Source: a virus
Taxonomy: Duplodnaviria > Heunggongvirae > Uroviricota > Caudoviricetes
IMG/VR virus record: IMGVR_UViG_3300032327_001521
DNA length: 64,000 nucleotides
Direction: 5' to 3' (one strand)
Each line of letters opens with the position of its first letter. Within the stretch, counting starts at the first letter, position 1. The notes below the pieces were generated by a model. It had not been told where the DNA came from. It worked only from the letters and a program-made list of their open reading frames with translations, and ran no database searches. A program made the position numbers and the translations under genes. Shown piece after piece: positions 42,295 to 42,700 of the stretch.

Positions 42295-42664
42295 GGGGAC
42301 GAAAGGATTCGACGTAGGTTATTCCAGTCCACTTGCATGCCGGGAAAGATGCTCTACCCGTAAAATTCGTATCAAAACGTACGTGGCAACACTACATCCT
42401 TCTGGAGCCTTGTTAACGCAACTGTTAGCACTCCTGCTGGTACTGAGCTTGTAGAAGCATAGTCCAGTAAGCGGCAACTGCTTAAGTAAACCAAAGTTGC
42501 AAAACCAGTATGGCACCAGGGCCAAGTCTAACCCAGGTCGGCTTTTCGCAGTAAGCCGTTAACTAATCTGCTTGTTGGCAACATTCGAAAATGTTGGTAA
42601 GCATGTGAATGAAGGTGTGCTTGAGAGCAATACGGACGCGGCTTCGATGCCGCCGTCTCCACCA
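42295..42664 (+). ncRNA. ssrA: tmRNA (SsrA)
   Basis: 5' GGGGACG + GGATTCGACG block; 3' GGACGCGGCTTCGATGCCGCCGTCTCCACCA with T-arm, encoded CCA, discriminator A; acceptor stem pairs 1-7 with a G3:U70 wobble (alanine identity); PK1-like H pseudoknot gcat-gccggg-aaag-atgc-tcta-ccc; candidate tag frame ending TAG at 42460. Confidence 0.85.
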
Positions 42665-42670
42665 CAACAA

Positions 42671-42700
42671 AGGGGTTCCAAATTGGAGCCCCTTTCTTTT
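42671..42700 (+). terminator. rho-independent terminator of ssrA
   Basis: aggggttcc-aaatt-ggagcccct (one G-U pair) followed by tttcttttt. Confidence 0.7.

What the first reader, a model, noticed from the sequence alone, without database searches (positions are those of the whole stretch)
42295..42700. Phage-encoded tmRNA (ssrA) with full tRNA-like domain and its own terminator
The plus strand carries a complete tmRNA within an otherwise minus-strand structural region. It has a GGGGACG 5' acceptor strand, the conserved GGATTCGACG block and a T-arm (gcggc-ttcgat-gccgc). The 3' end is ...CGTCTCC-A-CCA. Pairing the two acceptor strands gives a 7-bp stem with a G3:U70 wobble, the AlaRS identity element of all tmRNAs. 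A pseudoknot-like element (gcat/gccggg/aaag/atgc/tcta/ccc) follows, then ORF-like tag candidates: ATVSTPAGTELVEA-stop at 42418-42462, or a longer version beginning at GGC 42385. I could not fix the resume codon by eye. A strong intrinsic terminator follows at 42671-42700.
Basis: partly seen in the sequence, partly recalled or inferred. Interest (0 to 1): 0.75.

Follow-up and report, generated by a model that had tools for sequence, protein, structure and literature searches.

The report
Phage-encoded tmRNA gene, confirmed
This is a genuine ribosome-rescue RNA (tmRNA) gene carried by an uncultivated jumbo phage and kept by every sampled relative; phage tmRNAs are already known, so it is solid but not surprising, its oddities being a long conserved tag, a shortened T-loop and an altered tag end.

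Summary
Window 42295-42664 (+) is a full-length one-piece tmRNA (Rfam RF00023, 77.9 bits against a threshold of 47). It lies between a baseplate-wedge gene and a T4 gp15-like gene of a jumbo myovirus, behind a conserved promoter-like motif and ahead of a strong intrinsic terminator.

A homolog is present in all 63 related IMG/VR loci, from contigs of up to 271 kb. All 17 lineage representatives tested pass Rfam at 80-129 bits. The acceptor stem, P2, four pseudoknots and the T-arm are supported by many compensatory changes, and G3:U70 is invariant.

The resume codon is GGC at 42385. The tag is GNTTSFWSLVNATVSTPAGTELVEA, with its stop at 42460-62. The frame is open in all 29 distinct sequences, and every indel is a whole codon.

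Two peculiarities stand out. The window's lineage has a 6-nt T-loop where all relatives have 7, which is linked to ARAGORN's failure to call it. Its tag ends in VEA rather than the AA or VA of all other lineages, and a second lineage with a normal T-loop shares that ending.

No SmpB is encoded in the window, but ribosomal protein bS21 is. Phage tmRNAs are documented, so this is a new member of a known kind. The host is unresolved.

The parts
42251..42279 (+). Promoter-like region: a -35-like GTGACC (42251-56), a 17-nt spacer and a perfect TATAAT (42274-79). It is embedded in the composite motif ATAAATA-N5-TAGTATAAT (42260-42279) and ends 15 nt before the mature 5' G.
   Evidence: Found by the consensus scan at 10 of 12 matches. 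The composite motif occurs once in the 64 kb, where 0 are expected. It is conserved upstream of the tmRNA in nearly all relatives, 9-17 nt before the 5' G (read). TATAAATA alone is not enriched in the window. Promoter function is inferred, not shown.
42295..42664 (+). tmRNA (ssrA) gene, one-piece, 370 nt including the encoded CCA.
   Evidence: Rfam RF00023 at 77.9 bits, E 1.5e-28, matching the full model. Homologs occur in 63 of 63 related loci. RNAalifold finds 33 of 57 pairs with compensatory changes. With the pseudoknotted model, 93.4% of cells are paired against 31-39% in slid controls.
42295..42301 (+). Acceptor stem, 5' strand (GGGGACG). It pairs with 42654-42660 (CGTCTCC), with G3:U70 formed by 42297 and 42658.
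   Evidence: Read directly from the sequence. Across the family the pair types include GGGGGTG/CACCTCC, GGGGATA/TATCTCC, GGGGGCG/CGCCTCC, GGGAGTA/TACTTCC and GGGGTCG/CGGCTCC, with G3:U70 kept in all.
42305..42313 (+). D-loop analogue, GGAUUCGAC.
   Evidence: Aligned to the conserved GGaUUCGAC block of RF00023 with high posterior probability.
42313..42340 (+). P2 helix, 5' strand. It pairs with 42601-42634 in segments: 42313-16/42631-34, 42317-19/42627-29, 42325-29/42618-22, 42331-34/42613-16 and 42335-40/42601-06.
   Evidence: Helices 2-4 are 92-100% paired, and 9 of their 22 pairs change on both sides. An example is GCAUGC/GCAUGU in the window against GCACGC/GCGUGU in relatives.
42341..42373 (+). 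Pseudoknot PK1: stem 1 is CGGG (42341-44) with CCCG (42357-60); stem 2 is GAUGC (42348-52) with GUAUC (42369-73).
   Evidence: Stem 2 is 100% paired. Stem 1 reads CGGG/CCCG in the window and L003 but CGAG/CUCG in the other relatives, a compensatory change visible in the alignment. Its low score comes from a one-column alignment offset.
42385..42462 (+). Tag reading frame: resume codon GGC at 42385-87, 25 codons encoding GNTTSFWSLVNATVSTPAGTELVEA, and stop codon TAG at 42460-62. U(-5) and A(-4) lie at 42380-81.
   Evidence: Rfam places the resume codon here. The same frame is open in all 29 distinct relatives at 23-27 codons, every indel is a whole codon, and pN/pS is 0.56 in frame against 0.89 and 0.79 in the shifted frames. 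ARAGORN calls homologous tags in 25 of 28 relatives. The UA at -5/-4 matches the E. coli U85/A86 frame determinant (PMC2481249).
42468..42500 (+). PK2: stem 1 is UAAGC with GCUUA (42468-72/42480-84); stem 2 is GCAAC with GUUGC (42474-78/42496-500).
   Evidence: Both stems are 100% paired. The outer pair switches between U-A and C-G. In distant relatives the stems read UUGGC/GCCAA and GCAC(U)/(G)GUGC.
42511..42538 (+). PK3: stem 1 is UGGC with GCCA (42511-14/42521-24); stem 2 is ACCAGG with CCAGGU (42515-20/42533-38).
   Evidence: Stem 2 is 97% paired and 4 of its 6 pairs change on both sides, for example GUAGCG/CGUUAC in L005.
42539..42571 (+). PK4: stem 1 is CGGC with GCCG (42539-42/42555-58); stem 2 is GCAG with CUGC (42548-51/42568-71).
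   Evidence: Stem 1 is 100% paired, switching between CGGC/GCCG and CGAC/GUCG. In stem 2, 3 of 4 pairs change on both sides (CAG/CUG, CUC/GAG, CUU/AAG).
42579..42596 (+). Terminal hairpin before the 3' strand of P2 (CAACAUU-CGAA-AAUGUUG).
   Evidence: 87% paired, with 4 of 7 pairs changing on both sides.
42638..42653 (+). T-arm: a 5-bp stem GCGGC/GCCGC with a 6-nt loop UUCGAU (42643-48).
   Evidence: Read from the sequence. Rfam needs a one-position deletion in the loop to align it. All 28 other distinct sequences have a 7-nt loop UUC(G/A)AnU. The same 6-nt loop appears in the independent contig L001, which differs at 7 positions over ~521 aligned bases (3 within the tmRNA). T-stem pairs covary strongly.
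42661..42664 (+). Discriminator A and genomically encoded CCA.
   Evidence: Only some relatives encode the CCA, while others continue with sequences such as CUA, CAA, CGG or CUC. Those would need CCA to be added after transcription.
42669..42700 (+). Intrinsic terminator: a 12-bp hairpin followed by CUUUUU.
   Evidence: Found by the scan, with an energy of -18.9 kcal/mol. Hairpins with different sequences occupy the same place in L192 and L187.
40432..42195 (-). Flanking gene: baseplate wedge protein, transcribed divergently from the tmRNA.
   Evidence: PHROG 219, E 7.9e-30.
42716..43465 (+). Flanking gene: T4 gp15-like tail sheath stabiliser, co-oriented with the tmRNA and 52 nt downstream of it. 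It served as the synteny anchor for finding relatives.
   Evidence: Pfam PF16724, E 3.8e-05, at 23.4 bits, just below the cut-off of 25. It retrieved 62 related loci at 66-99% identity.

Best explanation
Window 42295-42664 is a selectively maintained one-piece tmRNA gene belonging to an uncultivated clade of jumbo myoviruses, whose contigs reach about 271 kb.

Shown here: it has the complete tmRNA architecture. This comprises a tRNA-like domain with G3:U70, the P2 helix, PK1, a tag reading frame, PK2 to PK4 and a T-arm. It forms its own transcription unit. It is present in every sampled relative and evolves by compensatory changes in its helices and by codon-respecting changes in its tag.

Inferred mechanism: the RNA is transcribed from the conserved TATAAT-type promoter. 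Host RNase P removes a short 5' leader, and the trailer after the CCA is trimmed. Host AlaRS charges the RNA with alanine through G3:U70. With SmpB (none is encoded in this window, so probably the host's) and EF-Tu, it enters ribosomes stalled on broken mRNAs. Translation then resumes at GGC 42385, guided by the upstream U-A. This appends Ala plus GNTTSFWSLVNATVSTPAGTELVEA, terminates at UAG and frees the ribosome.

The likely benefit to the phage is keeping ribosomes available during a long infection, when host mRNA is being degraded and host ssrA transcription may cease. In most relatives the tag ends in LAA, VAA or LVA, which look like degrons. In the window's sub-lineage it ends in VEA, so tagged products may be degraded less efficiently or by another route.
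For: Identity as tmRNA:
- Rfam gives a full-length RF00023 hit at 77.9 bits, E 1.5e-28.
- All 17 lineage representatives tested score 80-129 bits.

Phage context:
- TerL, a baseplate wedge protein, a gp15-like protein, a tail tube protein and PhoH surround the gene.
- The closest TerL matches are huge phages, PAU, Lak phages and PTm1 at 31-37% identity.

Clade-wide conservation:
- 63 of 63 loci carry a homolog, on the same strand as the gp15-like gene.
- All are full length except one that is cut by a contig end.

Structure:
- 33 of 57 RNAalifold pairs show compensatory changes.
- With the pseudoknotted model, 93.4% of cells are paired against 31-39% when partners are slid.
- 29 of 78 pairs change on both sides, and 0 of 500 shuffles reach the observed values.
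- G3:U70 is invariant.

Tag:
- The frame is open in all 29 distinct sequences and every indel is a whole codon.
- Leu and Ala codons vary synonymously.
- pN/pS is 0.56 in frame against 0.79-0.89 in shifted frames.
- ARAGORN independently calls the same frame in 25 of 28 relatives and in L192.
- UA at -5/-4 matches the experimentally defined U85/A86 determinant (PMC2481249).

The window copy is not decaying:
- It has only 1 private substitution at columns invariant in all other lineages.
- Its helices are intact although it is only about 68% identical to its nearest relatives outside its own lineage.
- The VEA tag end is shared with a separately diverged lineage, L192/L195.

Transcription unit:
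- The promoter motif is unique in the window and conserved in relatives.
- The terminator is strong.

Precedent:
- Phage tmRNAs are documented (PMC4131195; PMC9004378; PMC7162821).
Against: - No expression, processing, charging or tagging data exist for this gene. Everything after 'the gene is conserved and folds like tmRNA' is inferred from knowledge of bacterial trans-translation.
- The window's T-loop has 6 nt instead of the 7 found in all relatives. The consequence for SmpB or EF-Tu binding, or for formation of the tRNA-like core, is unknown.
- The window's Rfam score is the lowest in the family.
- ARAGORN reports it only below its default threshold, with a 'p' flag.
- The penultimate Glu in the tag departs from the Ala-Ala end of the E. 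coli-type degron. This point rests on my knowledge of ClpX recognition and was not tested here.
- No SmpB is encoded in the 64-kb window or beside the tmRNA in any relative. Dependence on host SmpB is therefore assumed.
- pN/pS of 0.56 is only a moderate coding signal, and the sequences compared are related to each other.
Confidence: 0.8

Rival explanations
1. Re-purposed tagging. The RNA rescues ribosomes, but its tag is not a standard ClpXP degron. The conserved core GNTx[FI]W[SD]x[VI]N would be a recognition element for a different partner, such as an adaptor, another protease or a phage factor. In the VEA sub-lineage the C-terminal degron would be deliberately blunted, so the phage changes the fate of tagged proteins instead of only clearing them.
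For: - The tag is 23-27 residues long, with a strongly conserved N-proximal core that includes an invariant Trp.
- The native Bacteroides tag is only 9 residues, GETNYALAA.
- The VEA end is kept in two diverged lineages, one of which has a fully canonical T-arm. It is therefore not a one-off lesion.
Against: - Most lineages still end in LAA, VAA or LVA, as ordinary degrons do.
- Long tags also occur in some bacteria (from my own knowledge).
- No candidate adaptor or protease was found in the window.
- Nothing tested here bears on proteolysis.
Confidence: 0.12
2. Inhibitory decoy. The RNA, at least the window's copy with its 6-nt T-loop, does not complete trans-translation. Instead it titrates host SmpB, AlaRS or EF-Tu and so blocks the host's own ribosome-rescue and tagging system. 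This is what has been suggested for the TLD-only molecule of mycobacteriophage DS6A.
For: - The DS6A precedent and the SmpB-titration idea are described in PMC4131195.
- The window's T-loop is non-canonical.
- No phage SmpB is present nearby.
Against: - A decoy would not need the tag frame, the upstream UA, or PK2 to PK4. All of these are conserved and covarying, including in the window lineage.
- All other lineages have canonical T-arms.
Confidence: 0.05
3. Decaying gene. The family's tmRNA is functional, but the copy in this window's lineage is on its way to becoming a pseudogene. The signs would be the T-loop deletion, the altered tag end and the lowest model score in the family.
For: - It has the lowest Rfam score in the family, 77.9 against 80-129.
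- ARAGORN does not call it at default settings, and reports 'tmRNAp' at a 90% threshold.
- The 6-nt T-loop is unique to this lineage.
Against: - There is only one private substitution at otherwise invariant columns, fewer than in several lineages that ARAGORN accepts.
- All helices are intact through compensatory changes.
- The tag frame, promoter motif and terminator are intact.
- The same sequence state persists in an independent contig that differs at 7 other positions.
- The VEA end is also present in a lineage with a canonical T-arm.
Confidence: 0.04
4. Host-derived fragment or attachment site. The sequence would be a piece of host ssrA picked up by imprecise excision, or an attP core for integration into the host tmRNA gene.
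For: tmRNA genes are frequent integration sites, and mobile elements carry their 3' ends (PMC12595487; PMC9004378).
Against: - The gene is full length, not a 3' fragment.
- It sits between structural genes of a jumbo myovirus.
- The Pfam scans of the window's ORFs (the 2020-aa fibre-like ORF at 55187-61249 was not scanned) returned no integrase family.
- No bacterial species-representative genome contains the family's PK1 signature (0 hits among 185,579 species).
- The gene has diversified with the phage clade into at least 17 lineages.
Confidence: 0.01

Closest known systems
Bacterial one-piece tmRNA (ssrA; Rfam RF00023)
   Same: - The whole architecture matches: a 7-bp acceptor stem with G3:U70, discriminator A plus CCA, the GGAUUCGAC D-loop analogue and the P2 helix.
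- PK1 precedes the tag, with UA at -5/-4 before the resume codon.
- The tag frame has an in-frame stop and is followed by three further pseudoknots and a 5-bp T-stem.
- The length, 370 nt, is also typical.
   Different: - It is encoded by a phage, not a cell.
- The window copy has a 6-nt T-loop.
- The tag is long at 25 residues, has a conserved Trp-containing core, and ends in VEA in this lineage.
- No bacterial species representative carries the family's PK1 signature.
tmRNAs of Bxz1-like (cluster C) mycobacteriophages, phage Wildcat and Bacillus phage G
   Same: These are complete tmRNA genes carried by large, lytic-type phages (PMC4131195). Phage G is also a very large phage.
   Different: - The phage lineage and hosts are unrelated.
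- There is no detectable DNA similarity: blastn of the window's tmRNA against 50,697 phage records found nothing.
- I did not compare tags or structures with those phages.
tmRNAs reported in metagenomic huge phages (Al-Shayeb et al. 2020, PMC7162821)
   Same: - These are uncultivated phages with genomes above 200 kb.
- The window's TerL is most similar to records from that collection, LR745206, LR756502 and LR756500, at 35-37% identity.
- A tmRNA occurs alongside other translation genes there, as with bS21 in this window.
   Different: - That study also reports phage SmpB, and none is seen in this window.
- Its tmRNAs were detected with ARAGORN, which misses this copy.
- I did not check whether those genomes carry a homolog of this particular family.
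Two-piece tmRNA of Methylophilales phage Melnitz and pelagimyophages (PMC9004378)
   Same: - It is a tmRNA in T4-like aquatic myoviruses, conserved in part of a phage group.
- The proposed roles are the same: maintaining the hijacked translation machinery or tagging host proteins.
   Different: - Those are circularly permuted two-piece forms of alphaproteobacterial type, and the Melnitz one is associated with a glutamine riboswitch.
- This one is a standard one-piece form. Rfam reported no riboswitch in the window.
- It is present in 63 of 63 sampled relatives, against 17 of 47 contigs for the Melnitz group.
Native Bacteroides SsrA tag, GETNYALAA
   Same: - It starts with Gly, from a GGN resume codon.
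- The G-x-T-N-aromatic start and the Leu-Ala-Ala end resemble the family's typical GNTNF...LLAA.
   Different: - The phage tag carries about 15 extra residues between the two ends.
- The resemblance covers only a few residues, and it does not establish the host.

Membership tests
tmRNA (RF00023, one-piece) | Score at or above the curated Rfam gathering threshold over the full model | tested here: met
   77.9 bits against a threshold of 47, model positions 1-374, E 1.5e-28. The 17 lineage representatives score 80-129 bits.
tmRNA (RF00023, one-piece) | 7-bp acceptor stem formed by the 5' and 3' ends, with the G3:U70 AlaRS identity pair | tested here: met
   42295-301 pairs with 42654-660, and G42297 pairs with U42658. 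G:U is kept in all distinct sequences while pairs 5-7 covary.
tmRNA (RF00023, one-piece) | Discriminator A and 3' CCA (encoded or added) | tested here: met
   A at 42661 and CCA at 42662-64. Only some relatives encode the CCA.
tmRNA (RF00023, one-piece) | T-arm with a 5-bp stem and a 7-nt T-loop (UUCRAnU) | tested here: not met
   The stem is met (GCGGC/GCCGC). The loop is UUCGAU, 6 nt, and Rfam needs a deletion to align it. All 28 other distinct family sequences have 7 nt. I treat this as a lineage-specific deviation within an otherwise complete member, not as grounds for exclusion.
tmRNA (RF00023, one-piece) | D-loop analogue GGAUUCGAC and the long P2 helix joining the tRNA-like domain to the rest of the molecule | tested here: met
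   GGATTCGAC lies at 42305-13. The P2 segments are 92-100% paired, with 9 pairs changing on both sides.
tmRNA (RF00023, one-piece) | Pseudoknot PK1 immediately upstream of the tag template | tested here: met
   PK1 spans 42341-42373. Stem 2 is 100% paired. Stem 1 switches between CGGG/CCCG and CGAG/CUCG.
tmRNA (RF00023, one-piece) | Internal tag reading frame with a defined resume codon, the upstream U-A determinant and an in-frame stop | tested here: met
   The frame runs from GGC 42385 to TAG 42460-62. It is kept in 29 of 29 distinct sequences, every indel is a whole codon, and pN/pS is 0.56 against 0.79-0.89. UA lies at -5/-4.
tmRNA (RF00023, one-piece) | Tag ending in a hydrophobic, Ala-rich degron (typically ...LAA or ...VAA) | tested here: inconclusive
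   The window, L001, L192 and L195 end in LVEA. All other lineages end in LAA, VAA, IAA or LVA. Whether VEA acts as a degron cannot be judged from sequence.
tmRNA (RF00023, one-piece) | Downstream pseudoknots (PK2 to PK4) between the tag and the 3' strand of P2 | tested here: met
   PK2, PK3, PK4 and a terminal hairpin are 84-100% paired, with multiple pairs changing on both sides.
tmRNA (RF00023, one-piece) | Works with SmpB | not testable with these tools
   No SmpB (PF01668) was found in the window (the 2020-aa ORF at 55187-61249 was not scanned). None lies beside the tmRNA in relatives, by tblastn with a working positive control. The rest of the genome, which is 250 kb or more, was not available, and use of host SmpB cannot be tested in silico.
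tmRNA (RF00023, one-piece) | Expressed, processed, alanylated, and tags nascent chains | not testable with these tools
   No transcriptome or proteome data are available here.
Phage-encoded tmRNA (as opposed to a host gene or a prophage border) | Located inside a phage genome, flanked by phage genes, and inherited with the phage lineage | tested here: met
   It is flanked by baseplate-wedge and gp15-like genes. The window is 95% coding with phage functions. The gene is syntenic in 63 of 63 IMG/VR loci. The family signature is absent from 185,579 bacterial species representatives.

The most novel reading that the evidence does not exclude
The phage does not merely borrow ribosome rescue. It has redesigned the tag. 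On this reading the invariant GNTx[FI]W[SD]x[VI]N core is a docking site for a partner other than the usual ClpX/SspB route. In the window's sub-lineage the C-terminal Ala-Ala has been replaced by Glu-Ala, so that ribosomes are rescued while the tagged, mostly host-derived fragments are spared, or are routed somewhere other than ClpXP. This would make it a natural 'rescue without canonical degradation' variant of trans-translation, selected in a virus. The private 6-nt T-loop would then be a second tolerated or adaptive change in how the tRNA-like domain is handled.
Probability: 0.12. Interest if true: 0.65.

Novelty: new member of a known kind. Interest (0 to 1): 0.3.

Why it matters
Phage tmRNAs are known but rare, at about 2.3% of isolate genomes (PMC9004378), and none has a demonstrated function.

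This family appears to be a fixed component of an uncultivated jumbo-phage clade, present in 63 of 63 sampled loci. That argues it is useful to the phage and not an accidental passenger.

The family also offers natural variation that could be tested:
- Tags range from 23 to 27 residues.
- A sub-lineage has Glu at the penultimate tag position.
- One lineage has a shortened T-loop.

The window's copy also shows that ARAGORN-only surveys, such as those used for huge phages, for the INPHARED census and in Pharokka, can miss divergent phage tmRNAs that a covariance model detects.

Together with the bS21 gene in the same window, it adds to the picture of large phages carrying parts of the translation apparatus.

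Tried and rejected
1. ARAGORN on the window found nothing. I tested the cause.
   - Inserting one base into the T-loop did not rescue detection.
   - Replacing the whole T-arm with a canonical one did. ARAGORN then chose a non-conserved tag, AKPVWHQGQV, inside PK2/PK3, which I reject because no relative conserves it.
2. blastn and megablast against 50,697 deposited phage records found no match, either for the tmRNA or for window 30-54 kb.
3. I considered whether TATAAATA acts as a T4-type late promoter used across the phage. It is not enriched (3 occurrences against 5.2 expected), so I do not claim this.
4. I tried to find the host or origin through bacterial genomes.
   - The family-specific pattern gave 0 hits.
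   - The relaxed pattern gave 120 mostly chance hits, of which only 3 were real tmRNAs.
   - The best match, from Balneolaceae MAGs at 36.6 bits, is too weak and the sample too truncated to name a host.
5. The SmpB search was negative in three places.
   - Pfam on the window's ORFs. All crude ORFs of 55 aa or more were scanned, except the 2020-aa fibre-like ORF at 55187-61249 and a spurious one overlapping the tmRNA.
   - The ORFs inserted next to the tmRNA in relatives.
   - tblastn with an E. coli SmpB sequence recalled from memory, with a valid positive control.
   The remainder of the genome could not be examined.
6. I rejected the small hairpin over the resume codon and the helix across the tag frame that RNAalifold proposed. 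They lie within the coding part and are not features of tmRNA.
7. The 'Serglycin' Pfam hits are artefacts of the Gly-Ser linkers I used to concatenate ORFs.
8. I considered an alternative genetic code, as in Lak phages. Stop-codon usage is TAA 50, TAG 14 and TGA 9, with 95% coding density under code 11, so the standard code fits.
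Full report
**1. The observation**

- GGGGACG at 42295-42301 pairs with CGTCTCC at 42654-42660 as 7 bp with a G3:U70 wobble.
- The discriminator A and an encoded CCA follow at 42661-42664.
- GGATTCGAC lies at 42305-42313.
- The T-arm GCGGC/TTCGAT/GCCGC lies at 42638-42653.
- A hairpin with a T-run follows the gene.

cmscan against all 4227 Rfam families returns a single hit in the 64 kb. 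It is RF00023 (tmRNA) at 42295-42664 on the plus strand, matching model positions 1-374 at 77.9 bits against a gathering score of 47, with E = 1.5e-28.

The terminator is confirmed at 42669-42695 as 12 bp followed by CTTTTT, with an energy of -18.9 kcal/mol.

ARAGORN finds no tRNA or tmRNA anywhere in the window. The reason is addressed in section 5.

**2. Context**

The neighbouring ORFs are phage structural and packaging genes.

| Coordinates | Strand | Assignment |
|---|---|---|
| 35872-36498 | - | sigma factor with region 2 only |
| 36508-37227 | - | PhoH |
| 37504-39450 | - | T4-type large terminase |
| 40432-42195 | - | baseplate wedge |
| 42716-43465 | + | T4 gp15-like tail sheath stabiliser |
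| 44240-44854 | - | tail tube |

The terminase is closest, at only 31-37% identity, to metagenomic huge phages (LR745206, LR756502, LR756500), Sphingomonas phage PAU, Lak phages and Tenacibaculum phage PTm1. No deposited phage matches at the DNA level.

The window is 95% coding under the standard code and has 40% G+C. The tmRNA has 49% G+C.

The tmRNA lies in a divergent intergenic region. It is co-oriented with the two downstream plus-strand genes.

**3. Relatives**

The gp15-like protein retrieved 62 IMG/VR loci at 66-99% identity. Several come from contigs of 250-271 kb. A search with the 5' 20-mer of the tmRNA found one further stretch, on the same contig as one of these loci.

nhmmer with the window's tmRNA finds a homolog in all 63 loci. 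It is always on the strand of the gp15-like gene. It usually lies immediately upstream, and sometimes 0.8-3.1 kb upstream.

All copies are full length except one cut by a contig end. They comprise 29 distinct sequences in 17 lineages.

Every lineage representative tested passes Rfam at 80-129 bits. ARAGORN of 28.

Where extra DNA separates the tmRNA from the gp15-like gene, it encodes lectin-like (Laminin_G_3) or unassigned ORFs, not SmpB.

**4. Structure and the tag**

On the 29-sequence alignment, RNAalifold predicts 57 pairs, of which 33 show compensatory changes. These cover the acceptor stem, P2, the T-stem and several hairpins, and G3:U70 is unchanged.

I then wrote a pseudoknotted model for the window (coordinates). 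I counted it on the 11-sequence sub-clade that aligns through the variable region.
- 93.4% of cells are paired, against 31-39% when the 3' partners are slid by 1-3 columns.
- 29 of 78 pairs change on both sides.
- No shuffle out of 500 reaches the observed values.

PK2, PK3, PK4 and a terminal hairpin are each supported. The low figure for PK1 stem 1 is a one-column alignment offset. The sequences read CGGG/CCCG in the window and L003, and CGAG/CUCG in the others.

Rfam aligns the resume codon to GGC at 42385. From there the frame runs 25 codons, encoding GNTTSFWSLVNATVSTPAGTELVEA, to TAG at 42460-62.

The same frame is open in all 29 distinct sequences, at 23-27 codons.
- It has a conserved core, GNTx[FI]W[SD]x[VI]N.
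- All length differences are whole codons.
- Leu and Ala codons vary synonymously.
- pN/pS is 0.56 in frame, against 0.89 and 0.79 in the shifted frames.

The bases at -5 and -4 are U and A. This matches E. coli U85/A86, where A86 is the main frame determinant (PMC2481249).

**5. What is unusual in this copy**

*(a) The T-loop.* It is UUCGAU, 6 nt. All other distinct sequences have 7 nt.

The same state occurs in L001, an independent contig that differs from the window at 7 positions over about 521 aligned bases. It is therefore real, not an assembly error.

It is private to this lineage. The next lineages, L192/L195 and L003, have canonical loops.

Adding one base to the loop does not restore ARAGORN detection, but replacing the whole T-arm does. 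ARAGORN's failure therefore lies in the non-canonical T-arm as a whole, both its loop length and its stem sequence.

*(b) The tag end.* The tag ends in Val-Glu-Ala. All other lineages end in Ala-Ala or Val-Ala.

A separately diverged lineage from metagenomes, L192/L195, also ends in ...ELVEA while having a canonical T-arm, and ARAGORN calls that tag. The penultimate Glu is therefore a stable trait of a sub-lineage.

*(c) No sign of decay.* The window lineage has just one private substitution at columns invariant in all other lineages, fewer than several other lineages. Its helices are maintained by compensatory changes although it is only about 68% identical to its nearest relatives outside its own lineage.

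I therefore regard it as a constrained and probably functional gene, with two lineage-specific deviations whose effects are unknown.

**6. Transcription unit**

A composite motif, ATAAATA-N5-TAGTATAAT, lies at 42260-42279. Its perfect TATAAT ends 15 nt before the mature 5' end.

The motif occurs once in the window, where none is expected by chance. It recurs upstream of the tmRNA in nearly all relatives, 9-17 nt before the 5' G. A -35-like hexamer lies 17 nt upstream of the TATAAT.

This implies a short leader that RNase P would remove, which is an inference.

TATAAATA on its own is not enriched in the window. I therefore do not claim a T4-type late promoter.

Terminator hairpins of different sequence follow the gene in L192 and L187.

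Only some relatives encode the CCA.

**7. Partners, host and origin**

I scanned the window's ORFs against Pfam. This covered all crude ORFs of 55 aa or more, except the 2020-aa fibre-like ORF at 55187-61249 and a spurious ORF overlapping the tmRNA. No SmpB was found.

tblastn with an E. coli SmpB sequence, recalled from memory, found the positive control in a bacterial locus. It found nothing in the window or in about 0.6 Mb of phage loci. The rest of the genome was not available to me.

The window does encode ribosomal protein bS21 at 18471-18668 on the minus strand (PF01165, 43 bits).

No bacterial species representative out of 185,579 carries the family's TLD-P2-PK1 signature. A relaxed pattern returned mostly chance matches. 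Among the three real tmRNAs it found, two Balneolaceae MAGs gave the best match to the family profile. One of them matched over its full length, at only 36.6 bits.

The native Bacteroides tag is GETNYALAA. The family's typical GNTNF...LLAA looks like such a tag with about 15 residues inserted. These are hints of a Bacteroidota or FCB-group origin, not a host assignment.

**8. Mechanism**

Shown here:
- a complete tmRNA gene that covaries in its helices and evolves codon by codon in its tag;
- fixed across a phage clade;
- forming its own transcription unit.

Inferred from established trans-translation biology:
- charging by host AlaRS through G3:U70;
- delivery by SmpB and EF-Tu to stalled ribosomes;
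- resumption at GGC 42385 and termination at UAG;
- release of the ribosome.

The proposed benefit is keeping ribosomes free while host mRNAs are being destroyed and host ssrA may no longer be transcribed. This is the same reasoning offered for other phage tmRNAs (PMC9004378, PMC7162821).

The rivals are a re-purposed tag, an inhibitory decoy, a decaying copy and an att-site fragment. They are set out with their evidence in the rival explanations. The last is effectively excluded.

**9. Comparison and novelty**

Phage tmRNAs are documented in:
- Bxz1-like mycobacteriophages, Wildcat, DS6A (tRNA-like domain only) and Bacillus phage G (PMC4131195);
- Melnitz and pelagimyophages, as two-piece forms;
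- 402 of 18,146 isolate genomes in an ARAGORN census (PMC9004378);
- huge phages, together with SmpB (PMC7162821).

This locus meets every structural criterion of RF00023 except the 7-nt T-loop, and the degron-like tag end is uncertain. It is a new member of a known kind.

Its points of interest are:
- fixation across an uncultivated jumbo-phage clade;
- a long tag with a conserved Trp-containing core;
- the VEA sub-lineage;
- the private 6-nt T-loop;
- the demonstration that ARAGORN-only surveys miss such copies.

**10. Verdict**

| Assessment | Value |
|---|---|
| Confidence that this is a bona fide phage tmRNA gene | about 0.97 |
| Confidence that it functions in trans-translation as described | about 0.8 |
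| Interest | 0.3 |

Noticed in passing
window 18471-18668 (-): A 65-aa ORF is a ribosomal protein bS21 homolog (Pfam PF01165, E 3.3e-11, 43 bits against a cut-off of 27). It is a second translation-related gene in the same phage window, next to a NUDIX gene at 18002-18490.
   Followed up: partly
window 42638-42653; L001 5504-5519: The T-loop of this lineage's tmRNA is 6 nt (UUCGAU) where all relatives have 7. The closing pair of the T-stem is C-G here and U-A in L003/L045, where most other relatives have G-C. I know of no functional tmRNA with a 6-nt T-loop, and the consequence is unexplained.
   Followed up: partly
window 42260-42279; upstream of the tmRNA in L003-L061: A composite motif, ATAAATA-N4-7-TAGTAYAAT, is conserved in front of the tmRNA across the clade but occurs nowhere else in the 64-kb window. 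It looks like a tmRNA-specific promoter and not a general phage promoter. The role of the ATAAATA half is unclear.
   Followed up: partly
L030 855-4000; L045 3216-4000; L003 3204-4000: The interval between the tmRNA 3' end and the gp15-like gene is a variable insertion spot in relatives (0.06 to 3.1 kb). In the ~271-kb genomes it holds two Laminin_G_3 lectin-like ORFs. No integrase or SmpB is present there.
   Followed up: partly
relatives, 3' ends: Only some family members encode the 3' CCA. Others continue after the discriminator with CUA, CAA, CGG, CUC or CAC, so they would depend on a CCA-adding enzyme. Two sequences have a non-A discriminator (G in L036, U in L041).
   Followed up: no
L021 3243-3616: This tmRNA has the 5' part of the L026 type (GGGGATG...) joined to the 3' part of the L025 type (...CACCTCC). 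That creates an A:C mismatch in the acceptor stem. It looks like a recombinant or a chimeric assembly.
   Followed up: no
window 52059-54416 (-): A 785-aa protein is made almost entirely of DUF285 repeats of the 'NQPLxSWNxxxVTxM' type (PF03382, 777 bits). It lies among tail-fibre-like genes and is probably a host-recognition protein.
   Followed up: partly
window 55187-61249 (-), 48364-51195 (-), 51246-52031 (-), 63502-63918 (-): A 2020-aa ORF carries long collagen-like GTSGxxG repeat blocks, and a 943-aa ORF has collagen and BppL_N matches. Several fibre-like proteins in this region also contain runs of 5-8 threonines, which appear to act as Thr-rich linkers.
   Followed up: no
window 5312-6451 (-): A thymidylate synthase (PF00303, 310 bits) matches the profile in two stretches. 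The protein is 379 aa against a 266-position profile, which suggests a sizeable insertion in the enzyme.
   Followed up: no
window 7714-8517, 10395-11396, 13108-14418 (all -): A cluster of DNA-repair genes is present: an Fpg/Nei glycosylase, the UV endonuclease UvdE and an ATP-dependent DNA ligase. An RNase_T-like exonuclease and a DUF3127 protein lie nearby. This is an unusually full repair set for a phage.
   Followed up: no
window 35872-36498 (-): A 208-aa protein matches only sigma-70 region 2. It is possibly a gp55-like late sigma factor, yet the T4 late-promoter motif TATAAATA is not enriched in the window (3 found, 5.2 expected).
   Followed up: partly
whole window: ARAGORN finds no tRNA gene in the 64 kb, and Rfam reports no RNA family other than the tmRNA. 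In this stretch the phage carries a tmRNA and bS21 but no tRNAs.
   Followed up: yes
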